In this document: piece after piece, positions 14,409 to 32,600 of the stretch
Position numbering within the stretch: the first letter of the stretch is position 1
How the letters are laid out: each line of letters opens with the position of its first letter
NCBI GenBank assembly: GCA_903837175.1
Contig: CAILTR010000055.1
Coordinates: 819 to 64,818 of the forward strand
Length of the DNA stretch: 64,000 bases
Source of the DNA: an uncultured bacterium
Lineage (GTDB): Bacteria > Patescibacteriota > Minisyncoccia > Moranbacterales > GWC2-37-73
Direction: 5' to 3'
Notes under the pieces: generated by a model
Seen by the model: the letters and a program-made list of their open reading frames with translations, nothing else
Database searches by the model: none
Told to the model about the DNA's origin: nothing
Position numbers and translations under genes: made by a program

Positions 14409-14414
14409 TTTTAA

Positions 14415-14806: not shown

Positions 14807-14846
14807 TTTCTTATCATCTAGTGAAGAGACCAAAATTTTTTATTTT

Positions 14847-14886
14847 AAATTGTCATTTTCCATTTTGAGATTTACATTTTTCATTT
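14847..14886 (+). repeat. Right inverted-repeat end (modules X-ga-Y) of the four-helix-bundle cassette. It directly abuts the start of the second permease gene.
   Basis: 'tgtcattttccattttgagatttacatttttcattt'. Confidence 0.5.
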
Positions 14887-14889
14887 ATT

Positions 14890-20131: not shown

Positions 20132-20509
20132 TCAGCGCGTAACTAGGAAAATACCGAAAAGAATGATAAAAATTCCTAGTCCTTGACTAGCATTTATTTT
20201 TTCCCCAAGGAAATAGTAATTGGCTATAATAACAAAAACCAGGGCTATCGAGGTTATGAACGTTGTTATCGTAGTGGAGCTATTTGCCAGGTGGGGGATT
20301 TTGAGGAGACTATTGTTGATCATAATGAAGAATAACCTTGCCATAAAGGCGAAGCCTGCTCCAAGAATAAAATGCCAATCAAGGAGCATTTTAAAAACTC
20401 CCATGGGCGTTAAATTTGACCCATTAATAAAGGACCGCGATCCGGTCAATAGAATTGAAATTACGGTAACTAATGAGAATAGCGCCGTGTAGAGAATGAC
20501 GTATGACAT
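20132..20509 (-). CDS. Small EamA/DMT-like four-TM protein (ArnE/ArnF-like lipid-linked sugar flippase subunit).
   Basis: The C-terminal 'YYFLGEKINASQGLGIFIILFGIFLV' resembles the EamA signature. It lies downstream of the GT2 and DUF2304 genes. Confidence 0.45.
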   Translation of the reverse strand: MSYVILYTALFSLVTVISILLTGSRSFINGSNLTPMGVFKMLLDWHFILGAGFAFMARLFFIMINNSLLKIPHLANSSTTITTFITSIALVFVIIANYYFLGEKINASQGLGIFIILFGIFLVTR

Positions 20510-20519
20510 ATTTTTTCTC

Positions 20520-21320
20520 TTAATTATTATTATTATTTTTATAGCTAAGCCCATAGAGCTTGCTCATTATAATGGCGATTGTTGATGGCAAGAACCGTTG
20601 GAACATTTCTAAATCTTCTTTTTGTCTTCGATTATCGGCAATCCCTTGGCTTGTTGTGCTTTCGGCATAAATCCTGTGTGAAACGAGGGTTTTTTTGACC
20701 CAAATAAAAGCTCCCTTTTTTTCGGCCAAATCGGCCCAAGCTTTCCAGTCCATATTGATACTAAAATTTTTATCAAACTTAAAATCTCCAAGGTTGTTTT
20801 TTTGAAAGGTGACAGTGGGACATCCAATTGGATCTCCAAGGGCGAGCAAACGTTGTTTGTTTTTTGTGAGGCTATTTTTGTTTCTAAAAAATAGTTTCAG
20901 CATTGTTGCTTTAATAAAAAAATTGAGTGATTTTTTTCGGACGAATGTGCGGTTTTTATTAATAACAACCTCATCATAGTTTGAGAAAATAATTAAGGTG
21001 TCCTTTCTGGTTTCAGCTAATTGCAGCACCTCTTTACTGTAATTAGGAAAATAAATATCATCTTGGTGCGCTAGGGTTACATAGTCGGTCGTCGCACTGC
21101 TGAGCGCAAAGTTCCAATCGCTAGCAATACCTTTTCTTTCTGGGTTGATACATAATTTTAAATTGTTTTTAGTTGCAATGTTGGTTAGAAAAGTGCTTGG
21201 AGTCGAAGTGCAAATAATAATTTCACTTTTGGTAGTTTGATTTTTGAGTGAATCAATACATTCTTGTAAATGAGGAGATTCCTTGTATGCTAAAATTGCA
21301 AACGTATGAATTGCTTTCAT
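20520..21320 (-). CDS. Glycosyltransferase family 2.
   Basis: 'FAILAYKESPHLQECIDSLKNQT' marks a GT-A N-terminus, with a DxD-like 'HQDD'. Confidence 0.7.
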   Translation of the reverse strand: MKAIHTFAILAYKESPHLQECIDSLKNQTTKSEIIICTSTPSTFLTNIATKNNLKLCINPERKGIASDWNFALSSATTDYVTLAHQDDIYFPNYSKEVLQLAETRKDTLIIFSNYDEVVINKNRTFVRKKSLNFFIKATMLKLFFRNKNSLTKNKQRLLALGDPIGCPTVTFQKNNLGDFKFDKNFSINMDWKAWADLAEKKGAFIWVKKTLVSHRIYAESTTSQGIADNRRQKEDLEMFQRFLPSTIAIIMSKLYGLSYKNNNNN

Positions 21321-21325
21321 GCTGA

Positions 21326-21673
21326 TTATTTTTCAGTTAGTTTGCTTAACGCTTCTTTCCTGACAATCTCCGAAACATTTCGCTCAATCCGCTCTAAGAT
21401 GTTGATAACTTTAAAAAGAATTACAAAGACAACCACAAAGCCGATAAAAATAAAAGTATTAAGACTTTCGCCGAAGCCCAATTGTTGGGAGATTTTATGC
21501 GTTGCGTTTGGAAAGAGGGAAAAAGCCGCGATGCTAAGCCAGATTATATTGCTGGTGACGAGTTTAAAAAAAGTTTGGCTCTGCTCTCCTTTTAAAAACT
21601 TTAGCCAAGCGCTAAGCAGGAAACTAAGCGCCCCAAGCGCCATAATAATTCTAAAGATAAAGACTAGGGTCAT
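21326..21673 (-). CDS. DUF2304-like small membrane protein accompanying GT2.
   Basis: 115 aa with three TM helices and a C-terminal amphipathic 'ILERIERNVSEIVRKEALS'. Its position upstream of a GT2 is typical. Confidence 0.5.
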   Translation of the reverse strand: MTLVFIFRIIMALGALSFLLSAWLKFLKGEQSQTFFKLVTSNIIWLSIAAFSLFPNATHKISQQLGFGESLNTFIFIGFVVVFVILFKVINILERIERNVSEIVRKEALSKLTEK

Positions 21674-21677
21674 AGGG

Positions 21678-21760
21678 TTCTTGAAGTTATAACGTTTTTA
21701 ACGTTCATAACGTTATAAAGTTATAAAGTAATAAAGTTGTGAAGTAGTAAAATTCTAACG
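21678..21760 (+). repeat. Array of tandem 8-9-nt units (ACGTTATAA / AGTTATAAA / AGTAATAAA).
   Basis: Direct reading. An inverted counterpart sits at 23500-23567. Confidence 0.6.
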
Positions 21761-22399
21761 TTAAGAACTTTTTAGCACTTTCCAATAACCACCCTTGTCG
21801 GGGCCGATTCTTTTTAAGAGTCCAGCTTTCTTTAGGTTGGTTATATTTTTTTCAATAGCTCGACTGGAGATACCAATTTTATCAGCGATGTCCTCAGCGC
21901 TTAATTTACCATCTTTTTGCAATAAATGCAATATTTTCTCCGAACTTTTCTCCGAACTTTTCTCCGAACTTTTCTCCGAAACGTTTTCTCCAAAAATATT
22001 TACATCAATCCCGCCCGAGACTTCTTTTAGCTCAGGCCTTGGAAGCCCATAAGCCGTAATTTCATCAATAGCTCTTTTTACTCCGCTGCCATATTTTTCA
22101 ATTAGTCCAACCTCTTTGAAAATTTCAGCAATTTTTAAATTTCTAGGGGTAGACTTTTCCGAGCCAGCGTATAAATCCTCGATTGAGATATTAGTTGGTA
22201 ATTTTCCAATGTTCCAGATAACGAGTTTGTTTTGGTAAACCCTAAATTGCGAATGAACTCCACTTCGGTAGTCACGATGGATGATAGCATTTACGATAAA
22301 CTCTCTCACTGCAGAGAGGGGATATTGCCAGCGTTCATCGCGCTCGGGCTTACCAGTGATGATGTATTCCTTGGTTATGTGGGACATGACAAAATCCAT
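21761..22399 (-). CDS. HATPase_c_4 (RecG C-terminal-like) plus winged-HTH putative transcriptional regulator. It is a Schlafen/AlbA_2-type regulator lacking the N-terminal AlbA_2 domain.
   Basis: 'REFIVNAIIHRDY', 'RNLKIAEIFKEVGLIEKYGSGVKR' and C-terminal HTH 'LSAEDIADKIGISSRAIEKNITNLKKAGLLKRIG'. The linker (SEKS)n is encoded by a 12-nt tandem repeat. Confidence 0.6.
   Translation of the reverse strand: MDFVMSHITKEYIITGKPERDERWQYPLSAVREFIVNAIIHRDYRSGVHSQFRVYQNKLVIWNIGKLPTNISIEDLYAGSEKSTPRNLKIAEIFKEVGLIEKYGSGVKRAIDEITAYGLPRPELKEVSGGIDVNIFGENVSEKSSEKSSEKSSEKILHLLQKDGKLSAEDIADKIGISSRAIEKNITNLKKAGLLKRIGPDKGGYWKVLKSS
21935..21981 (-). repeat. In-frame 12-nt tandem repeat (ttttctccgaac x~4) encoding the (SEKS)n linker.
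   Basis: Direct reading. Confidence 0.8.
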
Positions 22400-22494
22400 T
22401 ACCAGGTCAACCTCGCTCAGTAAATATATTGTGACGGAGCTAAGCTCCGAATCGGAGCTTAGCTCCGGGATAGCAAACTACAACTAATTAAGTT

Positions 22495-22600
22495 AAGTTG
22501 GTATTATAACGTTAAGAACATTACAAGCGTTCTAACTTTACAAACATTTTAACGTTACAAGCTTTATAAACGTGCTAACGTTAGGAACTTTTAGAGCCTC
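22495..22600 (+). repeat. Array of degenerate 8-9-nt AACGTT-containing units.
   Basis: 'aacgttaag aacattaca agcgttcta ... aacgttaca ... aacgttagg'. Confidence 0.5.
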
Positions 22601-22604
22601 CAAC

Positions 22605-23288
22605 CTACCCTGAAATTATCATCTTAACTAAAGTTTTGAGGCCATTTTTAAGATTCATTTTGTGAACTTTACTCATGGAATATTTAGTATAGCGAACCTC
22701 AATCGGCGTCTCAACGAATTTGAGTTGGTTGCGATGAATTTCGCGGATAACTTCGCTGTCATATTCGTAGCGATCAGTTTTAGTCTCAATCAGGTTGATA
22801 GCTTTTTTAGAATAAGCGCGAAAGCCAGATTGGCTGTCAGTAACCCAAAGTCCATAAATAACTAAGGTACAAAAATTTCCAAAATAGTTAGCGGCAATTT
22901 TCCAAACTGGCATTCCTTTCGGATTTTGTAGTCTAGAACCAAGCACTACGTCATTTCCTTGCTCGATAAAGGCTAGCATTTTTGCAATGTCGCTGGGGTT
23001 GTGTTGGCCGTCTCCGTCAATGGTAACTACAATATCCGCGCCAAGGAGTTTAGCCGCTTCAATTCCAGTTTTAGCTGCCGCGCCCTTCCCCCGATTTAGG
23101 AAGTGCTTTAACGCAATAACTCCAGCTTCTTTCCCAGCTAGCGCATAGGTTTCATCTGCGCTCCCATCATCTATGACGATAATATCGCGATAGCCCGCCG
23201 TCTGAACTTCCTTAATAACAGAAATAATCACCGTCGCCTCATTATACGCTGGGATCAAAATATAAATTTTCTTTGAAATTGTTTCCAT
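22605..23288 (-). CDS. GT2 polyprenyl-phosphate glycosyltransferase (DPM1-like, soluble).
   Basis: 'ILIPAYNEATVI', 'IVIDDGSADET' and 'DGDGQHNP'. Confidence 0.8.
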   Translation of the reverse strand: METISKKIYILIPAYNEATVIISVIKEVQTAGYRDIIVIDDGSADETYALAGKEAGVIALKHFLNRGKGAAAKTGIEAAKLLGADIVVTIDGDGQHNPSDIAKMLAFIEQGNDVVLGSRLQNPKGMPVWKIAANYFGNFCTLVIYGLWVTDSQSGFRAYSKKAINLIETKTDRYEYDSEVIREIHRNQLKFVETPIEVRYTKYSMSKVHKMNLKNGLKTLVKMIISG

Positions 23289-23499
23289 TAGTTAACAATA
23301 GCTTAAATATTAGGAAAAGCAATACCGTGGACCATGGGGCACAGGGCCTTAAAATTTCGAATTTCCAATTCTGAATTTTGAATCAATTTTGAATTATTTA
23401 ATGTTTCAAACATTGGGTCATTAGAATTTTATTCAAAATTCGAAATTCAAAATTCAAAATTATTTCCGTATTCTAAAATCTACCCTTTACTCTTTATCA

Positions 23500-23567
23500 C
23501 TTTACAAACGTTATGAACGTTAAAAACGTTATAACTTTCAACTTTATTACTTTATTACTTTATTCAC
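23500..23567 (+). repeat. Array 'aaacgttatgaacgttaaaaacgttata' followed by (AACTTTATT)x3. It is the inverted counterpart of 21705-21734.
   Basis: Direct reading. 23533-23560 is the reverse complement of 'ataaagtaataaagtt' at 21715-21730. Confidence 0.55.
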
Positions 23568-23614
23568 CCCGTAAAACTCGATTCTCTCGTCACGGGGCAC
23601 GCTTTCAACTTTCT

Positions 23615-24598
23615 TTATTCCCTAAACCCATCTGGATTTTTTCTGTGCCAATTCCAGGCGGTTTCGACAATCTGCTCAATTTCTGGAAACTGCGGTTGCC
23701 AGCCGAGAATAGCTTGGGCTTTTTGGGAGCTAGCAAAGAGATTAGCTGGGTCGCCATCGCGACGGGGCTCTTCGATAACTTTAAAGTCAACGCCGGTAAT
23801 TTTCTTTGAGATATCAATAACTTGGCGCACCGAAGTTCCTTTTTCATTACCAAGATTAAATTTATTAGAGACATTGTTTTTTTCTAGATAAGTCAGTGCT
23901 AGGACGTGCGCCTCGGCTAAATCATTAACGTGGACGTAGTCGCGAACGCCAGTGCCGTCGGCGGTTGGGAAGTCGGTGCCAAAAACTTTAATGGCGTCAT
24001 GTTTACCTAGCGCCGTTAGCAGAATCAAAGTTATTAGATGAGTTTTATTTTTATGGTCAGCTCCAATTTCGCCTGTTGGGTCAGCGCCAGCAGCGTTAAA
24101 ATAGCGCAGGGCGACGGACTTAAGCCCGTAGGCGTGATCGTAAGCGTCAAGGACTTGCTCAAACATTAGTTTAGTCAGGCCGTAGACGTTGGTTGGATTT
24201 TTTGGCGCAGTTTCTTGGATGGGCATTTCCTCAGGTTCGCCATAGACCGCAGCCGAGGAAGAAAAAATAATTTTTTTTACACCGCGCTCGAGCATGGCTT
24301 CTAAGAGATTAAGCCCACACACAAAATTATTTTCAAAAAATCTTTTTGGGTCAGTCATTGACTCGCCAGCTTCAATACTGCCAGCGAAATGCACTACGCC
24401 GTCAAAAGAGTTTTGGGCAAAAACTTTCTTTAAATCTGCTTTACTGGCTAAATCGCCTTCGAAAAGCTCAAAATCTTTAATTGCATCGCGGTGTCCTGAA
24501 GAAAGATTGTCAAAAATAATAATCTCGTGGCCAGCTTCTTTTAATTTTCGAACCGTGTGGCTTCCGATATAACCTGCGCCACCAGTGACTAATAGTTT
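23615..24598 (-). CDS. galE: UDP-glucose 4-epimerase.
   Basis: 'MKLLVTGGAGYIGSH', 'YGLTK' and 'SSSAAVYG'. The start was chosen at MKLLVTGG. Confidence 0.9.
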   Translation of the reverse strand, partial: KLLVTGGAGYIGSHTVRKLKEAGHEIIIFDNLSSGHRDAIKDFELFEGDLASKADLKKVFAQNSFDGVVHFAGSIEAGESMTDPKRFFENNFVCGLNLLEAMLERGVKKIIFSSSAAVYGEPEEMPIQETAPKNPTNVYGLTKLMFEQVLDAYDHAYGLKSVALRYFNAAGADPTGEIGADHKNKTHLITLILLTALGKHDAIKVFGTDFPTADGTGVRDYVHVNDLAEAHVLALTYLEKNNVSNKFNLGNEKGTSVRQVIDISKKITGVDFKVIEEPRRDGDPANLFASSQKAQAILGWQPQFPEIEQIVETAWNWHRKNPDGFRE

Positions 24599-24602
24599 CA
24601 TA

Positions 24603-24640
24603 AAACATAGAACATAGAACATGGAACATATAGCATAAAC
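24603..24640 (+). repeat. Tandem heptamers (AAAACAT AGAACAT AGAACAT GGAACAT ATAGCAT) abutting the galE start codon.
   Basis: On the galE coding strand this reads ATGCTAT ATGTTCC ATGTTCT ATGTTCT ATGTTTT then ATG (the start). Confidence 0.6.
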
Positions 24641-24730
24641 TAGTAAATGCAAATTTAAACTCAAGTTTAAATTGAAATTCGCAAACCATAGTTTATGAAA
24701 TGTCCAATGCCTCGTTTTTAAAAAAGAAAA

Positions 24731-24765
24731 ACTGCTACCTTGATAGTAGCAGTTTTTCTGGGTTT
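24731..24765 (-). terminator. Hairpin terminator for the lipoprotein gene (bidirectional shape).
   Basis: 'ctgctac cttgata gtagcag' is flanked by an A-run upstream and a T-run downstream. Confidence 0.45.
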
Positions 24766-24788
24766 CTTCAACTAACCGGAGGTGCGGT

Positions 24789-25097
24789 CTAAAGTCCGAG
24801 TTCGCCGTCTGGGGTGTCTGTGCCCAGGGCTTTATCGGTGTCTTGAAGCGCTTGGTCGATACCGCTGACTTCGCTGTCGATAGCTTGCTTATTATCGGCT
24901 GGTAGGGGCGCTAATTCAGTAGGCGCAGGTGCCGTAGCCTCTGGGGTGGCTGGCTGAGTCGCTGGGGTAGCTATTGGCGTAGTAGTAATTGGACTTGTCG
25001 TTGTTGATGGTTTAGTGTTAAAGCCACAACCAGAAAAAAGTAAAACTGCTATCGGAAGCATCGAAAGTGCTAAGATACGTTTGAAAGAGGTTTGCAT
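24789..25097 (-). CDS. Thr/Pro-rich lipoprotein.
   Basis: The lipobox is 'LLFSGC' and the mature region is low-complexity TTTP-rich. Confidence 0.5.
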   Translation of the reverse strand: MQTSFKRILALSMLPIAVLLFSGCGFNTKPSTTTSPITTTPIATPATQPATPEATAPAPTELAPLPADNKQAIDSEVSGIDQALQDTDKALGTDTPDGELGL

Positions 25098-25132
25098 AGT
25101 TTTGTTTCTAATGTTTATAAAGCTGATAAATT

Positions 25133-25822
25133 TTATAAGGTTGGTTCTGTTGCAGGGGTAGTAGTTGTTTTTTGGGTAGCTAGAAATTCTCGGATTGTTT
25201 TTAAGTCAGCTTTAATCGTCTTTTCAAAAAAGCTTTTAATCTCTTGGCGGTCAGCCCTGATCAAATCTGGAACTTTGCGGGCAGTTTCTAATTTAGCTTT
25301 AAATTCTCCTTCGGCTTTTCCACAAGCGAAACTCTGGGTTTCTTCCAAACTTGAGATAAAGGTGGCTTGGTCGGTTTTAAGTTTAGCAATTTTAGCTTGC
25401 AGGGTGGCAAGGTCAGTCTCGAATTGTTTAGTATCAGCACCAGCCGTTTTAAGTTTGGTTAGTAGTCTGGTTAATCTCGTTTGCATATTGCCATAGACGT
25501 TTTCAATCATTTGGCCATTGTTTTCATAACGATTGATTCGGTTAGCAATTTTGGTTTCAAGGTTCTTGCATTTTTCTGCAGTAAGTTTTTCTTTGCTATC
25601 TTTAAATTCTAGACGTTGTTGGGCTAACTCATTTTTTCCGTTTCGAATATCTTCTTTTAAGCCAAGACGTTCATTTCTAAGTTGTTGTCGTTGAGTCTGA
25701 AGCTCACTGCGCGTTTGCGGATTGGGGCTATCAGTGCTTGTTTCGGGAGTGCTCCCGAACGCTGGGATAGTGGGTACTGTTAAGGCAAAAGCCATTGACA
25801 AGAGAACGAGTTTTTTGTTCAT
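25133..25822 (-). CDS. Secreted coiled-coil protein.
   Basis: A signal peptide is followed by Gln/Lys/Glu-rich heptad sequence. Confidence 0.45.
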   Translation of the reverse strand: MNKKLVLLSMAFALTVPTIPAFGSTPETSTDSPNPQTRSELQTQRQQLRNERLGLKEDIRNGKNELAQQRLEFKDSKEKLTAEKCKNLETKIANRINRYENNGQMIENVYGNMQTRLTRLLTKLKTAGADTKQFETDLATLQAKIAKLKTDQATFISSLEETQSFACGKAEGEFKAKLETARKVPDLIRADRQEIKSFFEKTIKADLKTIREFLATQKTTTTPATEPTL

Positions 25823-25930
25823 TTGTTTGTTTATTAAAATTAATTATTCTAAAAATATTTTTTTAAAACTTCTTTAATTATATCGCAGCTCTGCTAAATC
25901 TCCAAGAGCTTAAAAGTTGCTTGGTTCTCA

Positions 25931-26058
25931 AATGCTTGTATGATTACATGCTTACATGTTTATATGTTTATATGTTTATATGATTATATGATTGTATGTT
26001 TATATGCTTACATGCTTACATGTTTATATGATTATATGCTTACATGTTTATATGATTA
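25931..26058 (+). repeat. 16 tandem copies of the octamer ATGNTTRY (atgtttat / atgattat / atgcttac). It sits in the divergent promoter region.
   Basis: Direct reading. Every unit starts with ATG. Confidence 0.85.
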
Positions 26059-26126
26059 TGCCTTTACTGGGCCTGACTTTATGCTATACTTTAAATACGT
26101 TAACTAAAGCTAAATAATTTCAACTT

Positions 26127-27068: not shown

Positions 27069-27137
27069 ACGGTTGCTTTTTTCAGGAAAATTAGCTAAAA
27101 TTAGGGGTGTAATCTAATTATTTTTTCGTTTAAAAGT

Positions 27138-28076
27138 ATGAATGAAAATCCTTTTATGTCAGTAGTTGTGCCTTTGTATGATGAGGAAGGTAATGTAAAG
27201 GAACTACATCGTCGCATTTTAGAGGCTTGTCAGGAAATTGGAAAGCCTTTCGAAATTATTTTCGTTGATGATGGTTCTAAGGATAAAACCGTTGAAAACT
27301 GCAAAGGTCTTTCGCCGCTTACGCTGATTAAATTTCGCAAGAATTTTGGCCAAACCGCTTCTTTCGACGCCGGGATTAAACAAGCCAAAGGTGAAATTAT
27401 TGTGATGATGGATGGGGATTTACAAAATGATCCTGCCGATATTAAGCTATTACTGGCTAAAATCGAAGAAGGTTTTGACGTGGTGGCTGGTTGGCGTTGG
27501 AAGCGAAAAGATAGCCTAAGTAAAAAAATCTTTTCCCGTACAGCTAATCTTTTGCGCAAGATTTTAATTCAAGACAAAATTCACGATAGTGGTTGTTCGC
27601 TAAAAGCCTATAAGCGAAGTTGTTTTGAAGACATGGATCTTTTTGGCGAAATGCATCGTTTTATCCCAGCACTTTTGGAGTTACAAGGTTATAGCGTTGG
27701 GGAAGTTAAGGTTAGCCACCATCCTCGAACTTCTGGGGTGACAAAATATAATTGGAAGCGCGCGATGAAGGGTTTTGTGGATATGCTTTCAATTTGGTTT
27801 TGGCGAAAATATTCGAACCGACCACTCCACCTTTTCGGGGGAACTGGCATTATTTTCTCAATTATCGGTTTTGGAATTTTGGCTTGGATGGCAATTGAAA
27901 AGATCTTTTTTGGAGCTAAGCTTATGAATACTAACTGGCCACTGATTGGAATTTTCTTCGTTTTAGTCGGCATCCAGCTTTTTATCTTTGGCCTGCTAGC
28001 TGATATCTTGCTTAAGGTTTACTATAGAAATCAAAAGCGGATGAATTATAATATTAAAGAGGTGGTTAAGGTCTAG
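27138..28076 (+). CDS. Second GtrB/ArnC-like GT2 with C-terminal TM helices.
   Basis: 'VVVPLYDEEGNV', 'FVDDGSKDKT', 'DGDLQNDP' and two C-terminal TM helices. Confidence 0.8.
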   Translation: MNENPFMSVVVPLYDEEGNVKELHRRILEACQEIGKPFEIIFVDDGSKDKTVENCKGLSPLTLIKFRKNFGQTASFDAGIKQAKGEIIVMMDGDLQNDPADIKLLLAKIEEGFDVVAGWRWKRKDSLSKKIFSRTANLLRKILIQDKIHDSGCSLKAYKRSCFEDMDLFGEMHRFIPALLELQGYSVGEVKVSHHPRTSGVTKYNWKRAMKGFVDMLSIWFWRKYSNRPLHLFGGTGIIFSIIGFGILAWMAIEKIFFGAKLMNTNWPLIGIFFVLVGIQLFIFGLLADILLKVYYRNQKRMNYNIKEVVKV

Positions 28077-28078
28077 AA

Positions 28079-28113
28079 CATAGAACATATAACATATAAC
28101 ATGTAACAGGGGA
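28079..28113 (+). repeat. Tandem heptamers AGAACAT AGAACAT ATAACAT ATAACAT GTAACAG.
   Basis: Same family as 24603-24640. Confidence 0.6.
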
Positions 28114-28255
28114 TAATATAAAGTAAGTAAATATAAAAAATAATAAATTTATCGGAGGAGCTTGGTAAGATGCCTTGGTTGAAAATCAATCGCATTAACA
28201 ATGAATGTGGAAATTTTTTGTTCCATGTTATGTGTTCTATGCTCCATATAATAAT

Positions 28256-29581
28256 ATGAAAATTGGCGTTATTGGCACTGGCTATGTGGGGTCTGTGACG
28301 GGGGCGTGTTTTGCAGAGATGGGCAATACGGTTATTTGCGTCGATAAAGATAAACATAAAATTGCCCAATTCGAATCCGGCAAAGCGCCACTGCACGAAA
28401 AAGGTTTAGACGAATTGGTCCTGCGAAATCTAAAAAATAAAACGCTGACCTTTACGACTGATTTTGAAGATGCAGTTAAAAAAAGTGATATTCTTTTTAT
28501 CGCAGTTGGAACGCCGCCTAATGAAGATGGAAGCGCTGATCTAAGTCACGTCTTAGGCGTAGCAACTTCAATCGGAAAGTCGTTGGATCATGAAATTATT
28601 GTCGTCGATAAATCAACGGTACCAGTTGGGACGGCGGAAAAAGTTCGTCAGCATATTGCTCAGGAACTTCAAAGTCGGGGAGTTGAAATTCCTTTTCACG
28701 TCGTTAGTAATCCAGAGTTTTTAGCTCAAGGCACAGCGGTAAAAGATTTCCTAGAGCCCAGTCGGATTGTAATCGGAGCCGATGAACCAAAAGTTATTGA
28801 GACGATGCGAGAACTTTATGAACCCTTTATGCGACGCGAGGGCAGGTTTTTTGCGATGGACCCCAAAACGGCTGAAATTGTCAAATATGCTTCAAATTGT
28901 TTTTTAGCTGCTAAAATTTCAGTCAATAATGAGCTAGCCAACATTTGCTCTAAAGCTGGCGCTGATTTTGATCATGTGCGTAAGGCGATGGGCGCTGATC
29001 CGCGGATTGGAGAACCTTTTATGTATGCAGGTCCAGGGTTTGGCGGCTCTTGTTTTCCGAAGGATGTCAAAGCTCTAGTAAGGACCGCTAAGGATTTTGG
29101 CTATGATGCTCAAATGCTCCGCCAAACTTTGGAAACTAATGAGCAGCAGAAATTTGTTTTATCGCAAATGGTGGTTGATAAATTGGGGCAGGATTTGAGT
29201 GGAAAAGTTTTTGGCGTGTGGGGCCTGGCTTTTAAGGCTGGCACGGATGATATGCGCGAATCTTCTGCGATTACAATCTTGAATGAATTGATTGCTAGAG
29301 GTGCAAAAATTCAAGCGCACGATCCAGAGTCAATGAAAATGGCAGCCACGCCGGAATATTTTGGAGCTAATCCAAGTATCACCTATTTTGAAAATAAATA
29401 TGAAGCTTTAAGGGATACTGATGCAATGCTAATTATTACGGAATGGAAAGAATTCCGCACGCCTGATTTTACGGAAATTAAGAAACTCCTAAAAACTCCG
29501 CTAATCTTCGATGGTCGTCTTTTATACGAACCAAAGAAAATGCAAGAATTCGATTTTGATTATAATTCGATCGGAAGATAA
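28256..29581 (+). CDS. ugd: UDP-glucose 6-dehydrogenase.
   Basis: 'MKIGVIGTGYVGSV' and 'GFGGSCFPKDV'. Confidence 0.9.
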   Translation: MKIGVIGTGYVGSVTGACFAEMGNTVICVDKDKHKIAQFESGKAPLHEKGLDELVLRNLKNKTLTFTTDFEDAVKKSDILFIAVGTPPNEDGSADLSHVLGVATSIGKSLDHEIIVVDKSTVPVGTAEKVRQHIAQELQSRGVEIPFHVVSNPEFLAQGTAVKDFLEPSRIVIGADEPKVIETMRELYEPFMRREGRFFAMDPKTAEIVKYASNCFLAAKISVNNELANICSKAGADFDHVRKAMGADPRIGEPFMYAGPGFGGSCFPKDVKALVRTAKDFGYDAQMLRQTLETNEQQKFVLSQMVVDKLGQDLSGKVFGVWGLAFKAGTDDMRESSAITILNELIARGAKIQAHDPESMKMAATPEYFGANPSITYFENKYEALRDTDAMLIITEWKEFRTPDFTEIKKLLKTPLIFDGRLLYEPKKMQEFDFDYNSIGR

Positions 29582-29587
29582 AATAGT

Positions 29588-29660
29588 TCATAAGGTTATA
29601 AAGTTCATAAAGTTCATAAGGCTTTGAACTCATAAGGTTTTTAGATTTATAAAGCTGTGA
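29588..29660 (+). repeat. Array of 8-9-nt units (GTTCATAAG / GTTATAAAG / GTTCATAAA ...).
   Basis: Direct reading. An inverted array sits at 30084-30125. Confidence 0.6.
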
Positions 29661-29708
29661 GGCTATAGAGTCTTCAGAATTGTAAATTTTGAACAGGAAA
29701 ATAAAAAA

Positions 29709-30059
29709 ATGGCAAAATTTGAGAGCTTTGAAGATATGCTTGTTTGGCAAAAATCAAGAATTCTTGTTTTGGACAGCTATAAAGCATTTAATAATAGTAG
29801 AGACTTTTCTTTCAGGGATCAAATTTGTAGGGCTGCGGTTTCAGTCATGAACAATATAGCTGAAGGATATGAGAGAAAGGGAAATAAGGAATTTGTGAAA
29901 TTTTTGTATATAGCAAAGGGTTCTTGCGCCGAAGTTAGATCGATGCTTTATTTGGCGGTCGATTTGAAGTATATAGATAAGACTGAATTCGAAAAGACAT
30001 ATAATCAGACTCTTGAAATTTCAAAAATGTTATCGAGCTTAATAAAAAAGATTTGTTAG
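29709..30059 (+). CDS. Four-helix-bundle protein (23S rRNA IVS protein family), intact.
   Basis: 'FEDMLVWQKSRILVLDSY...AAVSVMNNIAEGYERKGNKEFVKFLYIAKGSCAEVRSMLYLAVDL' matches the canonical family pattern. Confidence 0.8.
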   Translation: MAKFESFEDMLVWQKSRILVLDSYKAFNNSRDFSFRDQICRAAVSVMNNIAEGYERKGNKEFVKFLYIAKGSCAEVRSMLYLAVDLKYIDKTEFEKTYNQTLEISKMLSSLIKKIC

Positions 30060-30083
30060 AGATACTCAGAATTTGTATTCAAT

Positions 30084-30125
30084 AAGACTTTAAAAACTTT
30101 ACAAACTTTAAGAACTTTATAACTA
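30084..30125 (+). repeat. Array (AACTTTAAA AACTTTACA AACTTTAAG AACTTTATA). It is the inverted counterpart of the array at 29588-29660.
   Basis: Direct reading. Confidence 0.6.
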
Positions 30126-30127
30126 CT

Positions 30128-31300
30128 ATGAGAATACTTTTTTTTAATTATGAGTTTCCGCCGTTGGGTGGGGGAGCTGGCAATGCCTCCTCTTATTTAC
30201 TGAGAGAATACGCTAAGATGCCTGGGGTGGAAGTTGATTTTGTGACGGCGTCCTTTGATGAAAAATTCCACTGTGAAAATTTTGGAGGAAGTGTTGTTGT
30301 GCATCGTCTGCCGATTGGCAAGAACCAGGAGAATATTCATTTCCAAACGAAAAAGGAAATGCTGAAGTATAGTTGGGAATCCTATAAATATGGTCGAAAA
30401 TTAGCAAAAGAAAGAAAATACGACTTGACCCACTCTTTTTTCTCAGTGCCTTGTGGGTTTATCTCCTTATTGCTTCGTTGGGAATTTAAGCTTCCGTACA
30501 TTATTTCTTTGCGGGGTAGCGACGTTCCAGGTTATAGTGAGCGCTTTGGTTTGCTGTATAAATTCATTACCCCAATTATTAAATTGATTTGGCGACAAGC
30601 TTATTTTGTAATTGCTAATAGTGATGGACTTAAACAGCTAGCCCTACAGTCAGCGCCTCAAAAAGAAATTGGAGTGATTCTTAACGGAATAGATATTGAA
30701 GAATTTTTTCCTGACCATAGCAAAGTTAATCCAGATCAATTTCAGATCGTCTGCATTTCTCGGGTTACGCCACGTAAAGGCATTCGTTTTTTAGTGCAAG
30801 CGTTTAAAATTCTAGCGAGTCGCTATGCTCAAGTTAGAATGCTTATTGCTGGCGAAGGAAACGAATTAAAATCGCTTCAGCAACTAGTCCAAGGACTGGG
30901 GCTAGAGGATAAAGTTGTTTTCCTGGGCGCTGTTCCGCACGCTAAAGTACGGGAGTATTACCAAAAGGCTAACGTTTTTGTATTGCCTTCTTTAAACGAA
31001 GGGATGAGTAATACAATGCTGGAAGCGCTGGCTTGTGGACTGCCAATTGTCGCAACTGATACGGGCGGGACTAAGGAAATGGTAAGGGATGGTCAAAATG
31101 GCTTAATCGTAAAAATGAAAGATTCGAATGATTTGGTCGAAAAAATTGAAAAAATTATGCTTGATCGCGAGCTGGAAAAAGGGATGGGCGTCGCTAGCCG
31201 GCTAATGGCGGAGGAACTTAGTTGGGGGAAGGTTGCCGGTCAATATTTGGATTTATATGAAAAGACGATCAATTTAAGGAAAATTCGTGAAGGAAAATAG
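30128..31300 (+). CDS. Glycosyltransferase family 4.
   Basis: GT-B with the 'EGMSNTMLEALACGLPIVATDTGG' E-x7-E motif. Confidence 0.85.
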   Translation: MRILFFNYEFPPLGGGAGNASSYLLREYAKMPGVEVDFVTASFDEKFHCENFGGSVVVHRLPIGKNQENIHFQTKKEMLKYSWESYKYGRKLAKERKYDLTHSFFSVPCGFISLLLRWEFKLPYIISLRGSDVPGYSERFGLLYKFITPIIKLIWRQAYFVIANSDGLKQLALQSAPQKEIGVILNGIDIEEFFPDHSKVNPDQFQIVCISRVTPRKGIRFLVQAFKILASRYAQVRMLIAGEGNELKSLQQLVQGLGLEDKVVFLGAVPHAKVREYYQKANVFVLPSLNEGMSNTMLEALACGLPIVATDTGGTKEMVRDGQNGLIVKMKDSNDLVEKIEKIMLDRELEKGMGVASRLMAEELSWGKVAGQYLDLYEKTINLRKIREGK

Positions 31301-31359
31301 GCTAAAAGAATTCCTAATTCCTAATGTCTAATACCAAATTGATTTAACACAAGCTATGT

Positions 31360-31426
31360 CATTCCCGTGAAAACAGCCTGCCTACCTGCCCGAAGTGCTA
31401 CATTGTTGCAGGCGGGCGCGGGAATG
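31360..31426 (+). repeat. GC-rich (~60% GC) imperfect palindromic element in the AT-rich intergenic DNA.
   Basis: 'gtcattcccg' ... 'cgggaatggc' encloses 'cctgc...gcagg'. The direct repeat 'tgcaatgtgcgg' / 'tgcaaaatgcgg' follows. Confidence 0.4.
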
Positions 31427-31476
31427 GCAAGGTGTGCAATGTGCGGAGGGGGATGCAAAATGCGGAATACAAAAAT

Positions 31477-32421
31477 ATGATGATTTTTTCTAAAAATAAA
31501 ATTTTTAAGTTTTTACTGAAATTGACGGTGAGTCTTTTTTTTATTGTTTGGTTGGTGCTGAAAATAAAGTGGGGAGAGGTTTTAAATCATGCTTTGCAAA
31601 TTTCTTGGTGGCAAATAGTTTTATATGTAGCGGTGCTACTTTTAGGGATGGTAATCTCAGCCTATAAATGGGAAATGCTTGCCCGAGCCAAGGGCTTTAA
31701 TTTTCCGCTGAAAAAATATTTTCAACTATATTTAACCGGCACATTTTTAAATAACTTTTTCCCTTCTTTTATCGGGGGCGATACTTATCGGGCTTATCAA
31801 ATTGGCAAACCAGAACGAAAATATATCGCAGCAACCTCGACAGTCGTGATGGACCGCGTAACGGGCTTATTGGGTGCGATGATTTTATCGGTTTTTTTCG
31901 CGGTCTTAAATTGGCGCGTCGTAATAGAACATCGTCCACTGCTCCTTATCGCGGGGATTGCCTTGGCAGTTTTACTAGGCGTGCTAGCCACGAGCTTGGT
32001 GGTTAATCTGCCCTTCTGGAAATTGCTAGCTAAATTTACGCCGAAAAAGATTTTAGAAGTGATTAAAGATTTTGGACAATATCAGGGAAGTGTTGCCTTA
32101 AAAAAAGCTTTATGGCTCTCGGTCGGCTATGGGCTAGTTGGGCTGGCCTTAGTTAACTATGTGCTTTTTTCAGCGCTGGGTATTCAGCTAGGTTTGCTAA
32201 ATTATTTAACGGTTATCTTTTTAGTTAGTATTGTTTCTTCTATTCCAGTTAGCGTCAATAATATCGGAATTAAGGAATGGGCGTACGTAACCTTCTTTGG
32301 CTTTTTCGGAGTCAGCGCTTCGGCCGTCGTGACTATCGCAATTATCAGCCGAGTCCTCCAGATGTTAGTCAGTTTTGTAGCTTTGCCGATGTATTTAAAA
32401 AGCAAGGCAGAAAAAAATTAG
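31477..32421 (+). CDS. Flippase-like / lysylphosphatidylglycerol-synthase-TM-region family membrane protein (UPF0104).
   Basis: Eight TM helices and 'FFPSFIGGDTYRAYQ'. This family commonly partners with GT2 in glycosylation loci. Confidence 0.55.
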   Translation: MMIFSKNKIFKFLLKLTVSLFFIVWLVLKIKWGEVLNHALQISWWQIVLYVAVLLLGMVISAYKWEMLARAKGFNFPLKKYFQLYLTGTFLNNFFPSFIGGDTYRAYQIGKPERKYIAATSTVVMDRVTGLLGAMILSVFFAVLNWRVVIEHRPLLLIAGIALAVLLGVLATSLVVNLPFWKLLAKFTPKKILEVIKDFGQYQGSVALKKALWLSVGYGLVGLALVNYVLFSALGIQLGLLNYLTVIFLVSIVSSIPVSVNNIGIKEWAYVTFFGFFGVSASAVVTIAIISRVLQMLVSFVALPMYLKSKAEKN

Positions 32422-32600
32422 ATTTGATTTATTTAAATTAGAATAAAAAATAAAGGTTGTTAGTTAATAATTTTATCTTGCATGAAAGGAAAAGAGGACA
32501 TTTATTAACGAGATGTTCTTTTTGCTTTTTGTGCTAAGTTATGAGAATAGGTGTTATTCCGTTTTGGCATATTACAAGTTGGAATATATTATGAAAATAT

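What the first reader, a model, noticed from the sequence alone, without database searches (positions are those of the whole stretch)
20500..32500. Pervasive use of degenerate 7-9-nt tandem arrays as intergenic DNA across the glycosylation island
Almost every intergenic gap between 21 and 31 kb, and again at 58.3 kb, is built from tandem short units rather than unique sequence. The arrays are:
- ACGTTATAA-type at 21678-21760,
- AACGTTNNN at 22495-22600,
- AAATTCA and inverted arrays at 23340-23470,
- AACTTTATT at 23533-23560,
- AGAACAT at 24603-24640,
- ATGNTTAY at 25931-26058,
- AGAACAT again at 28079-28113,
- GTTCATAAR at 29588-29660,
- AACTTTANN at 30084-30125, and
- ATTCGTAG at 58342-58378.

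Different gaps use different but related units. Several occur as inverted pairs around gene units. This is not simple AT-rich low complexity. The unit phase is maintained for up to 16 copies.
Basis: seen in the sequence. Interest (0 to 1): 0.5.

Follow-up and report, generated by a model that had tools for sequence, protein, structure and literature searches.

The report
Repeat-ended selfish cassettes fill intergenic gaps
The short tandem repeats between these sugar-pathway genes are real; they are the paired, mirror-image ends and gene-less remains of small inserted cassettes carrying the same gene family, and built the same way, as the 'intervening sequences' known from ribosomal RNA genes.

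Summary
TRF arrays of period 6-10 cover 636 intergenic bases in 12 of 37 gaps, against a mean of 9.9 in shuffles, and 0.24% of coding DNA. They occur across the window, though 71% lie at 20.5-32.5 kb.

They are not generic spacer DNA. Most form inverted pairs.
- One pair (29585-29660 / 30084-30125) flanks an intact PF05635 gene ('23S rRNA intervening-sequence protein', IVP).
- A second flanks an IVP pseudogene.
- A third (28074-28250) still holds the 3' end of a deleted IVP gene.

The architecture recurs elsewhere.
- In 68 of 80 IVP loci from several phyla the gene has period 7-9 arrays beside it; the two arms are complementary and co-vary.
- It is also seen in cultured cyanobacteria (heptamers resembling the published STRR repeats) and in a true Azospirillum 23S rRNA IVS.

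Two results point to mobility.
- Related genomes show the same operon junctions empty, holding a gene-less pair, or holding a full cassette.
- A strain 9% diverged in the flanking genes carries the 546-nt cassette with one mismatch.

Likely mechanism, inferred: the arms pair in the operon transcript and RNase III cuts the stem, as shown for rRNA IVSs.

Verdict: a new variant of a known kind. Interest 0.6.

The parts
29582..30127 (+). Intact cassette filling the whole UGDH|GT4 gap. Left array 29585-29660 (AAGTTCATA-type 9-mers), IVP gene 29709-30059, right array 30084-30125 (reverse-complement units) ending 2 nt before the GT4 ATG.
   Evidence: Pfam PF05635 E 3.5e-37 and TIGR02436. Arms 82% complementary. 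The minimum-energy RNA fold pairs the arrays with 34 bp. One mismatch in 546 nt against strain L003, whose flanking genes differ by 9%.
28074..28255 (+). Internally deleted IVP cassette at the GT2d|UGDH junction. Left array 28074-28113 (AGAACAT/ACATATA), remnant of the 3' end of an IVP-B gene at about 28140-28215, right array 28219-28250.
   Evidence: 28140-28262 aligns to L084 5971-6096, which is the IVP C-terminus, right array and UGDH start: score 67 against a shuffle maximum of 25. L084 and L102 carry full PF05635 cassettes at this junction. Arms 83% complementary. Fold z -2.7 to -3.0.
21674..22604 (-). Cassette with a different cargo. Arrays 21677-21772 and 22504-22599 (AACGTT/AAGTT 9-mers) flank a truncated HATPase_c_4 + HTH gene (21761-22399).
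   Evidence: Arms 42 nt, 81% complementary (I4). Pfam. The DUF2304|GT2b junction is tight in L101 and L106, so this is an insertion. The arrays pair with 35 bp in the fold, z -3.5. Polarity matches IVP cassettes: AAGT upstream, ACTT downstream (read from sequence; rule).
23353..23461 (.). Gene-less palindromic pair of AATTTTG / CAAAATT heptamer arrays in the GT2b|Epimerase gap.
   Evidence: TRF 4.4 copies each. Arms 54 nt, 76% complementary, 1 nt apart. Fold z -3.9. The same element sits at the same junction in L083; the junction is about 10 nt and empty in L089.
23502..23564 (.). Array AACGTTATG/ACTTTATT (periods 9 and 8). It is the inverted partner of 21684-21772.
   Evidence: 31 nt 100% complementary to 21684-21714, extending to 58 nt at 76% (I5 and I1).
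24599..24640 (.). CATAGAA/AACATAG heptamer array abutting the epimerase start codon. It belongs to the same unit family as the IVP-B arrays.
   Evidence: TRF 4.6 copies. Best direct match is 28074-28113 and best inverted match is 28219-28250.
25932..26059 (.). Longest array: ATGNTTAY, 15-16 copies with a higher-order 24-nt period, in the divergent gap upstream of the GT2c promoter. The unit is the reverse complement of the AACATA family.
   Evidence: TRF score 137-165. Inverted match to 28074-28113. Absent from L083 and L089. Extended -10 promoter-like site at 26063-26090, downstream of the array.
31309..31340 (.). AATTCCT heptamer array with no clear partner, followed by a GC-rich hairpin element (31345-31431).
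   Evidence: TRF 4.6 copies. No significant inverted partner. Assignment to the cassette family is uncertain.
14409..14889 (+). Second IVP cassette (subfamily C), between two MacB/FtsX genes. Arrays 14413-14450 and 14835-14889 (AAAATGN heptamers). IVP gene 14435-14806 has an in-frame TAG at 14681.
   Evidence: TIGR02436 E 2.4e-23 with TAG read as W. Stop position. 32 bp between the arrays in the fold, z -3.3.
13016..13141 (+). Gene-less miniature of the 14409-14889 cassette. Both ends are conserved and the gene is missing.
   Evidence: The left 51 nt and right 57 nt align to the ends of the 14409-14889 cassette (scores 67 and 77).
52268..52400 (-). Gene-less pair of the same AAAATGN family, in the opposite orientation.
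   Evidence: Inverted match to 14840-14889 scores 54 against a null maximum of 28. Fold z -2.2, 26 bp between the arrays.
58250..58378 (.). Weak inverted pair (CTACAAAT-type / ATTCGTAG) upstream of a GT4 gene, interrupted by a GC-rich hairpin.
   Evidence: Visible in sequence. Not significant by alignment (score 18 against a null maximum of 20-22) or by fold (z 0.2). An ATTCGTA array sits before the GT4 start in L089. Uncertain.
11689..11725 (.). TTAGCTT-type array. Its direct-orientation partner at 16150-16185 brackets the ABC-transporter operon.
   Evidence: TRF. Direct match scores 32. Relation to the IVP cassettes was not shown.

Best explanation
The arrays are the inverted tandem-repeat ends of small inserted gene cassettes, and the decayed remains of such cassettes. 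They are of the same kind as 23S rRNA intervening sequences (IVSs).

**Anatomy (shown)**
- A complete cassette reads: left array of about 4-16 units of 7-9 nt; a roughly 120-aa four-helix-bundle IVP gene (PF05635/TIGR02436); then a right array made of the reverse-complement units.
- It sits exactly between the stop codon of one operon gene and the start codon of the next, and is usually co-oriented with them.
- Occasionally another small cargo replaces the IVP gene, such as a GxxExxY gene or an HATPase_c_4-HTH gene.
- The two arms are complementary and co-vary from element to element.
- The unit type follows the IVP subfamily: A has AAGTT 9-mers, B has CATGRRR, C has A/T-rich heptamers.
- Cassettes lose their gene by internal deletion. 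What remains is a gene-less inverted pair or a solo array, and this makes up most of the 'intergenic DNA' here.
- Junctions are polymorphic among relatives: empty, gene-less pair, or full cassette.
- One cassette is nearly identical between strains whose flanking genes differ by 9%. The elements therefore move or are exchanged as units.

**Mechanism (inferred)**
- The cassette is transcribed as part of the host operon.
- The arms pair into a stem of about 25-40 bp.
- RNase III cuts that stem, as shown experimentally for IVP-carrying rRNA IVSs. An insertion in an rRNA helix or at an operon junction is then tolerated.
- Gene-less pairs persist as processing or stability hairpins.
- The tandem structure is kept up by slippage together with selection or conversion for arm complementarity.
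- The conserved unit core and polarity suggest that a protein, possibly the pentameric IVP itself, also reads the units.
- How the cassettes insert is unknown.
For: - Statistics of the arrays.
- Intact PF05635 gene between inverted arrays.
- Pseudogene cassette and its gene-less miniature.
- An IVP 3' remnant inside the gene-less pair at 28074-28255, homologous to the full cassette at the same junction in L084.
- In 80 IVP loci from Patescibacteria, Bacteroidota, Ignavibacteria, Leptospiraceae, Gammaproteobacteria and others, 68 have flanking arrays of period 6-10, 52 on both sides, and 39 of those 52 share the same period.
- Upstream-downstream duplex energy is -63 kcal/mol, against -42 for shuffled and -44 for direct-orientation controls (p 5e-14).
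- An element's own arms share 0.47 of their 7-mers, against 0.21 across loci; 0 of 2000 permutations reach this.
- Polarity is conserved. AAGT occurs 3.5 times per 120 nt upstream and ACTT 4.3 times downstream, against a background of 0.5. Forty-four loci have this polarity and 1 the reverse.
- IVP is co-oriented with both neighbours in 44 of 68 loci and opposite to both in 6.
- Thirteen of 16 loci on finished plasmids show arrays. These include Nostoc, Anabaena and Calothrix heptamers, and Riemerella.
- A true 23S rRNA IVS in Azospirillum has the same inverted heptamer arrays.
- The Coxiella 23S IVS has an S23p ORF, a 28-bp stem formed by terminal inverted repeats, tandem GACAGAT heptamers upstream of the ORF, and RNase III cleavage in the stem: PMC4990558.
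- Orthologous junctions are empty, hold a gene-less pair, or hold a cassette.
- The cassette at 29582-30127 has 1 mismatch in 546 nt against L003, while UGDH and GT4 differ by 9.1% and 9.0%. The identical tract ends within 10 and 27 nt of the cassette ends.
- Window elements fold with 18-38 bp between the arrays; z is -2 to -3.9 for 6 of 8.
Against: - None of the window elements, and none of 40 IVP loci tested, lies in an rRNA gene. RNase III processing is extrapolated from rRNA IVSs and was not tested.
- Sense and antisense duplex energies, and G-U counts, differ only marginally (p 0.046; 770 against 697). Selection at the RNA level rather than the DNA level is therefore not shown.
- The window holds no transposase, integrase, reverse transcriptase or RNase III gene. 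No target-site duplication is visible.
- Some arrays have no demonstrable partner or IVP link: 31309-31340, 58342-58378, 11689/16150, and in part 25932-26059.
- A few loci have arrays in direct rather than inverted orientation: L027, L081 and Pseudanabaena L176.
- Two of eight window elements do not fold better than shuffles.
- The near-identical cassette rests on one pair of metagenome assemblies.
Confidence: 0.72

Rival explanations
1. The arrays are primarily host operon punctuation: hairpins selected for mRNA processing, stability or translational coupling between glycosylation genes. On this view IVP genes land in them, or are retained next to them, only secondarily.
For: - Most pairs in the window are gene-less.
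- Right arrays run up to the start codons of downstream genes.
- The literature on cyanobacterial STRR repeats proposes hairpins that stabilise transcripts or couple translation (PMC2670836).
- The element at GT2b|Epimerase is shared by the window and L083.
Against: - The same junctions are tight and array-free in relatives that carry the same operon (L094, L109, L101, L106, L089).
- The gene-less pair at 28074-28255 contains a remnant of an IVP gene, and 13016-13141 is a miniature of an IVP cassette. The direction of change is therefore cassette to relic.
- The architecture follows the IVP gene across phyla and neighbour functions.
- The unit type tracks the IVP subfamily, not the host junction.
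Confidence: 0.12
2. The arrays work at the DNA level. They would be subterminal repeated binding sites in inverted orientation, as at transposon ends, or cruciform-forming sites for a mobility or recombination machinery. That machinery might include the pentameric IVP. RNA pairing would then be incidental.
For: - There is no clear strand asymmetry in pairing or G-U content.
- The unit core and polarity are conserved across phyla at 52-76% protein identity.
- The unit type tracks the IVP subfamily.
- Copy number is about 4-5 for both 7-nt and 9-nt units. The PDB relatives 2GSC and 2RLD have five chains, and the homopentamer is cited in PMC4990558.
- A cassette-sized tract is nearly identical between diverged strains.
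Against: - No recombinase or transposase lies nearby, and no target-site duplication is seen.
- The strong co-orientation with host operons (44 against 6) is what co-transcription predicts; a DNA transposon has no need of it.
- Experimental RNase III cleavage in the homologous stem of the rRNA IVS shows that the RNA stem is at least functional there.
- TRF's score threshold biases the copy-number distribution.
Confidence: 0.2
3. The arrays are simple-sequence contingency loci. Slippage would switch glycosylation genes on and off (phase variation).
For: - The location is a surface-glycosylation island.
- Periods of 7-9 nt lie next to start codons.
- Coxiella strains differ by one heptamer copy in the IVS.
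- Array lengths differ between distant relatives.
Against: - The units are degenerate (70-90% matches), which suppresses slippage.
- There are no indels at all in 3,348 nt, including both arrays, against a strain 7-9% diverged. An independent assembly is identical.
- The arrays lie between a stop and a start codon, not in promoter spacers or reading frames.
- The same arrays flank IVP genes in unrelated contexts.
Confidence: 0.03
4. The arrays are chance AT-rich low complexity, an assembly artefact, or ordinary promoters and terminators.
For: - The genome is AT-rich (36-44% GC).
- A few arrays are weak: 25103-25142 and 58342-58378.
Against: - Array coverage is 64-fold above dinucleotide shuffles and 38-fold denser than in coding DNA.
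- The sequence is identical in independent assemblies.
- Promoter-like and terminator-like sites are not enriched (36 against 28 +/- 6; 12 against 11.5 +/- 4). The genome has canonical examples elsewhere: a terminator at 24725-24759 and an extended -10 promoter at 26063-26090.
Confidence: 0.01

Closest known systems
23S rRNA intervening sequences carrying an S23p/IVP ORF (Leptospira, Coxiella, Brucella, Xanthomonas; Coxiella IVS in PMC4990558)
   Same: - Same gene family (PF05635).
- Terminal inverted repeats form a stem around the ORF.
- Tandem heptamers lie directly upstream of the ORF.
- The ORF is prone to decay and deletion.
- These elements are regarded as selfish and horizontally acquired.
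- An Azospirillum 23S IVS examined here has the same inverted heptamer arrays.
   Different: - The window elements lie between protein-coding genes in operons, not in rRNA helices.
- The arms are longer, overtly tandem arrays (up to 16 units, 7-9 nt).
- Gene-less derivatives are numerous.
- Other cargo genes occur.
- RNase III cleavage is untested here.
Cyanobacterial STRR (short tandemly repeated repetitive) heptamer sequences (Mazel et al. 1990 and Vioque 1997, from memory and reference lists; PMC2670836)
   Same: - Tandem 7-bp units sit in intergenic regions of operons, for example hupS-hupL, and inside a structured RNA gene (RNase P RNA).
- They can form hairpins, and their function is unknown.
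- In Nostoc, Anabaena, Calothrix and Aulosira plasmids, such heptamer arrays flank IVP genes as inverted pairs.
   Different: - STRRs were described as a peculiarity of heterocystous cyanobacteria. I found no paper in the searched library linking them to IVP genes.
- The host here is a Patescibacteria (CPR) lineage, and the units are 7-9 nt and AT-rich.
Correia/nemis elements of Neisseria and other hairpin-forming intergenic MITEs such as ERIC, RUP and BOX (from memory)
   Same: - Small elements inserted between genes and co-transcribed with them.
- Their inverted ends pair in the mRNA. For nemis, that stem is cut by RNase III.
- Gene-less copies are abundant.
   Different: - Those elements have unique-sequence inverted ends and target-site duplications, and are tied to transposases.
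- Here the ends are tandem arrays, no duplication is seen, and the autonomous form carries a four-helix-bundle gene rather than a transposase.
Avd of diversity-generating retroelements
   Same: Homologous four-helix-bundle fold and family. IVP-B proteins hit bAvd weakly (E 4e-7 to 2e-9, below the Pfam cutoff). The window IVP hits the Avd model at E 3.5e-4.
   Different: - No reverse transcriptase or template/variable repeat pair is present.
- Scores are far below the Avd cutoffs (20.9 against 80 bits).
Integron gene cassettes with attC sites
   Same: Promoterless small ORFs inserted in the orientation of host transcription, bounded by imperfect inverted-repeat structures.
   Different: - No integrase is present.
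- Each cassette has two arrays rather than one attC.
- Cassettes are scattered singly at operon junctions rather than stacked at an attI site.

Membership tests
23S rRNA IVS element (IVP/S23p type) | Encodes, or derives from an element encoding, a PF05635 protein | tested here: met
   29709-30059 matches PF05635 at E 3.5e-37. 14435-14806 matches TIGR02436 at E 2.4e-23. An IVP 3' remnant lies in 28140-28215.
23S rRNA IVS element (IVP/S23p type) | Terminal inverted repeats that form a stem enclosing the ORF | tested here: met
   for the window. for 77 and 52 related loci.
23S rRNA IVS element (IVP/S23p type) | Inserted in a helix of the 23S (or 16S) rRNA gene | tested here: not met
   No Rfam hit in the window. 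The elements lie between protein-coding genes. None of 40 related loci is in rRNA.
23S rRNA IVS element (IVP/S23p type) | Excised from the transcript by RNase III | not testable with these tools
   Shown for Coxiella (PMC4990558). Only stem predictions are available here.
Cyanobacterial STRR | Tandem heptanucleotide units in non-coding DNA with hairpin potential | tested here: met
   Period-7 arrays at 23353-23461, 24599-24630, 28074-28108 and 13018-13137. Other arrays here have periods 8-9.
Cyanobacterial STRR | Occurs in heterocyst-forming cyanobacteria | tested here: not met
   The closest genomes are Patescibacteria/CPR MAGs.
MITE / DNA transposon | Target-site duplication and a cognate transposase | tested here: not met
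   No duplication at filled against empty junctions, though those genomes are diverged. No transposase in the window.
Phase-variable simple-sequence repeat | Near-perfect units with copy-number polymorphism between close strains | tested here: not met
   Units match at 70-90%. No indels against L003, and L002 is identical.
CRISPR array | Repeats of 24-48 nt separated by unique spacers, with cas genes nearby | tested here: not met
   Units are 7-9 nt and head to tail. No cas genes in the window.
DGR (Avd + RT + TR/VR) | Reverse transcriptase and a template/variable repeat pair next to the Avd gene | tested here: not met
   No reverse transcriptase was found; the only RVT_3 hit is an RNase H-like gene at 9756-10226. 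The Avd model scores 20.9 bits against a cutoff of 80.
Intrinsic terminator / sigma-70 promoter | GC-rich hairpin plus T-run, or -35/-10 hexamers, enriched at the arrays | tested here: not met
   Counts equal shuffle expectation.

The most novel reading that the evidence does not exclude
One pan-bacterial class of mobile 'operon-junction cassettes' would underlie three things so far treated separately: 23S/16S rRNA intervening sequences, the cyanobacterial STRR heptamers (unexplained since 1990), and the repeat-built intergenic DNA of CPR genomes.

Its ends would be co-evolving inverted tandem arrays whose unit is specific to each subfamily of the four-helix-bundle IVP protein. The pentameric IVP would read about five units, in RNA or DNA, to promote the element's maintenance or spread.

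The reported 'association' of 23S_rRNA_IVP with CRISPR-Cas loci would then be passenger insertions between cas genes.
Probability: 0.35. Interest if true: 0.8.

Novelty: new variant of a known kind. Interest (0 to 1): 0.6.

Why it matters
- **It explains the intergenic DNA of a streamlined genome.** Much of the non-coding sequence in this CPR glycosylation region, and the different repeat units in different gaps, become successive insertions and decay of one element class. No special host spacer design is needed.
- **It extends the IVS concept.** IVS-type elements move from a curiosity of rRNA genes to a general operon-junction parasite found in many phyla.
- **It offers a testable origin for cyanobacterial STRR repeats.**
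- **It gives the very large 'four helix bundle protein' family a genomic behaviour.** The behaviour is cassette-like, co-transcribed, and repeat-ended with subfamily-specific units. That makes its function experimentally approachable.
- **It has practical consequences.**
  - Such arrays can mislead repeat and CRISPR finders, operon predictors and guilt-by-association screens. IVP genes sit between cas genes in three cyanobacterial plasmids examined here.
  - Cassette presence or absence gives fine-scale strain markers in metagenomes.

Tried and rejected
- **Rfam and tRNA scans of the window**: nothing found, so the arrays are not a described RNA family.
- **rRNA context for 40 IVP loci**: none lies in rRNA. 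The other 40 were not scanned.
- **Strand asymmetry of pairing, to separate RNA from DNA function**: marginal (p 0.046), treated as inconclusive.
- **Copy number against unit length, as a test of 'five units per pentamer'**: about 4.3-4.5 copies for upstream 7-mers and 9-mers alike. TRF's threshold biases this, so it is only a hint.
- **Automated search for inverted array pairs and their cargo in 879 kb of related loci**: too strict. It found 13 pairs and was not used for frequencies.
- **Phage origin**: no IVP relatives in INPHARED or IMG/VR at the sensitivity used.
- **Promoter or terminator explanation**: rejected.
- **Phase variation**: rejected.
- **Compositional island**: GC content is unremarkable.
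- **Literature**:
  - No paper in the searched library describes tandem arrays around non-rRNA IVP genes or links STRR repeats to IVP.
  - Vioque 1997 (PMC146911) is not held.
  - Several broad queries were unproductive.
- **Not run:** the large protein searches, structure prediction and covariance models. PDB relatives and Pfam/NCBIfam assignments already settled family membership. Homologues of the HATPase_c_4-HTH cargo were not surveyed, so its status as a regular cargo is inferred from this one locus.

Full report

The longest is 25939-26059, period 8, 15.1 copies, 84% matches. Only 58342-58378 falls below TRF's score threshold.

I defined 37 intergenic gaps from a hand-curated ORF map.
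- Arrays of period 6-10 with at least 3 copies cover 636 intergenic bases in 12 gaps.
- In 200 dinucleotide-preserving shuffles the mean is 9.9 bases and the maximum 57. The best shuffled score is 44 against 137 observed.
- Coding DNA has 135 such bases in 56,892.

The sequence is 100% identical in an independent assembly from a different sample (L002).

Two corrections are needed.
- The arrays also occur at 11.7, 13.0, 14.4-14.9, 16.15, 31.3 and 52.3 kb, although 454 of the 636 bases lie at 20.5-32.5 kb.
- Most arrays are halves of inverted pairs.

**2. What lies between the arrays?**

The region is a cell-envelope glycosylation cluster: GT2, GT4, UDP-glucose dehydrogenase, an epimerase, PMT-like proteins, Wzy-like proteins and a flippase.
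- The gap between UGDH and GT4 holds a 116-aa gene, 29709-30059. It is a clear PF05635 '23S rRNA intervening sequence protein', also TIGR02436 'four helix bundle protein' (E 3.5e-37). Below it is called IVP.
  - Upstream of it are AAGTTCATA-type 9-mers and downstream their reverse complement (82% over 34 nt).
  - In the predicted RNA fold the two arrays pair, enclosing the gene.
- A second IVP gene, 14435-14806, has one in-frame TAG at 14681. It sits between inverted AAAATGN heptamer arrays.
  - 13016-13141 keeps both ends of that cassette but lacks the gene.
  - 52268-52400 is another gene-less copy, in reverse orientation.
- The pair at 28074-28250 encloses about 110 nt. This stretch aligns to the last 90 nt or so of an IVP gene, plus the right array and the UGDH start, of locus L084. 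The score is 67 against a shuffle maximum of 25. It is therefore an internally deleted cassette.
- Arrays at 21677-21772 and 22504-22599 flank a truncated HATPase_c_4-HTH gene with the same polarity.

**3. Is the link between IVP and arrays general?**

A scan of one genome per species returned 80 loci encoding relatives of the window's IVP at 52-100% identity. The best match is a MAG (L003). The nearest relatives are Patescibacteria. Others are labelled Bacteroidota, Ignavibacteria, Leptospiraceae, Gammaproteobacteria, Flexilinea and Erysipelotrichaceae.
- 68 loci have an array of period 6-10 within 200 nt of the gene. 52 have one on both sides, and 39 of those 52 share the same period. Median copy number is about 4-5.
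- The upstream and downstream flanks are complementary. Duplex energy is -63 kcal/mol, against -42 for shuffled partners and -44 for the direct-orientation control (p 5e-14).
- Units differ among loci but the two arms of one element co-vary. Examples are AAGTACGC/TACTTGCG, AATAGCA/TTGCTAT and CGTACAT/GTACGAT. An element's own arms share 0.47 of their 7-mers against 0.21 across loci, and 0 of 2000 permutations reach that value.
- In this IVP clade a unit core and its polarity are conserved across phyla. AAGT occurs 3.5 times per 120 nt upstream and ACTT 4.3 times downstream, against a background of 0.5. Forty-four loci have this polarity and one the reverse.
- IVP is co-oriented with both neighbouring genes in 44 of 68 loci and opposed to both in 6. 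The median gap to each neighbour is about 60 nt, so the arrays make up essentially all of the spacer.

**4. Cultured organisms and rRNA**

On finished plasmids, 13 of 16 IVP loci inspected show arrays.
- Nostoc punctiforme and Aulosira: AGGAGTC heptamers upstream, with a short complementary stretch downstream.
- Nostoc ATCC 53789 and Geminocystis: GGGAAAA / TTTTCCC.
- Calothrix brevissima: GGGTGTA / TACACCC.
- Anabaena sp. 90: about 40 GGTGACA-type units between cas6 and IVP, with TGTCACC units downstream.
- Riemerella: GGTTTAAG / AACCTTGA.

In heterocystous cyanobacteria such heptamers match the published description of STRR sequences. These are 7-bp repeats that form hairpins, for example between hupS and hupL, with no known function (PMC2670836).

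The Azospirillum lipoferum hit lies inside a bacterial LSU rRNA gene (L179 1286-4484). It is a genuine 23S IVS, and it too has inverted GAGGACG-type heptamer arrays.

The published Coxiella burnetii IVS has several of the same features (PMC4990558):
- an S23p (IVP) ORF;
- a 28-bp stem formed by terminal inverted repeats;
- two or three tandem GACAGAT heptamers upstream of the ORF, with copy number varying among strains;
- RNase III cleavage in the stem at the first repeat;
- an ORF undergoing decay.

The window's arrays therefore have the same architecture as the stem of a class of rRNA IVS, but here the elements sit between protein-coding genes.

**5. Insertion, decay and movement**

A metagenome scan with GT4 recovered loci that share the GT2d-UGDH-GT4-LPG-synthase core. 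The state of each junction varies among them.

| Junction | Empty or tight | Gene-less inverted pair | Full cassette |
|---|---|---|---|
| UGDH\|GT4 | 4 nt in L109; about 20-35 nt in L094, L101, L106 | L090 (AAAGTTATA/TATAACTTT), L083, L091, L096 | the window (IVP) |
| GT2d\|UGDH | L094, L109 | the window, L083, L096 | IVP-B in L084 and L102 (CATGRRG units); IVP-C in L090; a TIGR04256 GxxExxY gene between inverted CTAATCCA arrays in L089 |
| DUF2304\|GT2b | L101, L106 | | the window (HATPase-HTH cassette) |
| GT2b\|Epimerase | L089 | the window, L083 | |

The unit type follows the IVP subfamily. Subfamily A has AAGTT 9-mers, B has CATGRRR, and C has A/T-rich heptamers. This explains the 'different but related units' in different gaps.

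L003 is a strain 92.7% identical over 3,348 nt, with no indels.
- It differs from the window at 9.1% of UGDH sites and 9.0% of GT4 sites, mostly at third codon positions.
- It differs at only 1 of the 546 cassette positions.
- The nearest flanking mismatches are 10 nt and 27 nt outside the cassette ends.

Purifying selection cannot explain identity at synonymous and non-coding sites. The cassette must have been acquired or exchanged recently, as a unit. The absence of indels also argues against hypermutable repeats.

**6. How it most likely works**

The anatomy, its generality, arm co-variation, decay into gene-less relics, junction polymorphism and the cassette-sized identical tract are shown.

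The following steps are inferred.
- The cassette is read through as part of the operon. The co-orientation supports this, and the arrays abut the neighbouring stop and start codons.
- The arms pair. There are 18-38 bp between the arrays in the predicted folds, and z is -2 to -3.9 for 6 of 8 window elements.
- RNase III cuts the stem, as it does in rRNA IVSs.

The G-U and strand-asymmetry test was inconclusive, so a DNA-level role is not excluded. Such a role could be inverted subterminal binding sites, or cruciforms. The conserved unit core, its fixed polarity and the subfamily-specific units suggest that a protein also reads the units. The pentameric IVP is the obvious candidate. Its PDB relatives 2GSC and 2RLD have five chains each, and the homopentamer is cited.

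The insertion mechanism is unknown. No transposase, integrase, reverse transcriptase or RNase III gene is in the window, and no target-site duplication is visible.

**7. Rivals**
- Host-designed punctuation hairpins conflict with the empty orthologous junctions and with the IVP remnants inside gene-less pairs.
- Phase variation conflicts with degenerate units and zero length change.
- Promoters and terminators are not enriched, and canonical ones exist elsewhere.
- Chance and assembly artefact are excluded.

**8. Novelty**

IVP-carrying IVSs, their stems and heptamers, and cyanobacterial STRRs are each known. In the searchable literature I did not find:
- recognition that non-rRNA IVP genes in many phyla are bounded by co-varying inverted tandem arrays;
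- recognition that these cassettes and their relics make up much of the intergenic DNA at operon junctions in a CPR genome;
- a link between STRR-type heptamers and IVP genes.

The library is incomplete, so I rate this a new variant of a known kind, with moderate to high interest.

Several arrays remain unassigned: 31309-31340, 58342-58378, 11689/16150 and, in part, 25932-26059. All mechanism steps beyond anatomy are untested.

Noticed in passing
window 33270-34835 (-), with 32601-32822 and 32779-33273 (+): A single 521-aa ORF fuses a LexA DNA-binding domain, a Peptidase_S24 domain and a C-5 cytosine DNA methylase. Next to it are a small HTH_3 gene and a PD-(D/E)XK_5 endonuclease gene. This could be an SOS-style self-cleaving regulator fused to the methylase of a restriction-modification-like module.
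   Followed up: no
L166 (Anabaena sp. 90 cas6|IVP|cas4), L169 (Picosynechococcus cmr2|IVP|cmr3), L176 (Pseudanabaena cas6|IVP|cas4): IVP cassettes with their arrays sit between cas genes on three cyanobacterial plasmids. Published 'associations' of 23S_rRNA_IVP with CRISPR-Cas loci (PMC3936711, PMC10910872) may be passenger insertions at operon junctions rather than functional links.
   Followed up: partly
L176 (Pseudanabaena), L027, L081: In these loci the arrays on the two sides of the IVP gene are in direct, not inverted, orientation. Examples are CTAAAAG x15 upstream with CCAAAAG x9 downstream, and direct-control duplex energies of -130 and -110 kcal/mol. These exceptions do not fit the stem model.
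   Followed up: no
window 10270-10381, 31345-31431, 58265-58300, 55070-55133: GC-rich hairpin elements that stand out from the AT-rich background, for example GTCATCCTGAA...CAGCATGACAA and GTCATTCCCG...CGGGAATGGC. Two of them directly follow an AATTYCT-type heptamer array (10210-10233, 31309-31340). This looks like a second class of small repeated element. One interrupts the left array of the 58250-58378 pair.
   Followed up: no
window 21934-21991: A 12-nt coding repeat (TTTTCTCCGAAC x4.7, 95% matches) lies inside the HATPase_c_4-HTH gene, between its two domains. The gene lacks the N-terminal part typical of this family.
   Followed up: no
window 14681-14683: The second IVP gene has a single in-frame TAG where a TGG (Trp) codon is expected (...ESKV*LTLL...). 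It could be a recent pseudogene, a sequencing error or a recoding event.
   Followed up: partly
window 11689-11725 and 16150-16185: Similar TTAGCTT-type arrays in direct orientation bracket the whole HlyD-downstream ABC/MacB transporter block (12201-16146). That block itself contains two cassettes of the AAAATGN family.
   Followed up: no
window 5116-5186: This tandem repeat (AAAGCGAAAACA) is coding. It encodes a Lys/Ala/Thr-rich N-terminus (MKAKTKAKTKTK...) of ORF 5113-5730, which has no Pfam hit. It is not part of the intergenic array phenomenon.
   Followed up: no
window 8201-8266 and 9410-9480: The sequence upstream of the YhcG/DUF1016 PD-(D/E)XK gene (8267-9409) is partly repeated just downstream of it (TTTTGAAAGTTAYRTARCAC...). 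This suggests a duplicated or degraded second copy in the 346-nt gap.
   Followed up: no
window 28171-28260: A 29-codon ORF (MPWLKINRINNECGNFLFHVMCSMLHIII) is preceded by GGAGG, inside the deleted cassette. The stretch is part of the IVP gene remnant in L084, so the ORF is probably fortuitous.
   Followed up: no
window-wide start codons and gaps (e.g. 4690, 4770, 5080, 5775, 26085): Many gaps carry extended -10 motifs (TGnTATAAT-like). Many start codons lack an obvious Shine-Dalgarno sequence. Right-hand arrays often supply the last 0-12 nt before the downstream start codon.
   Followed up: no
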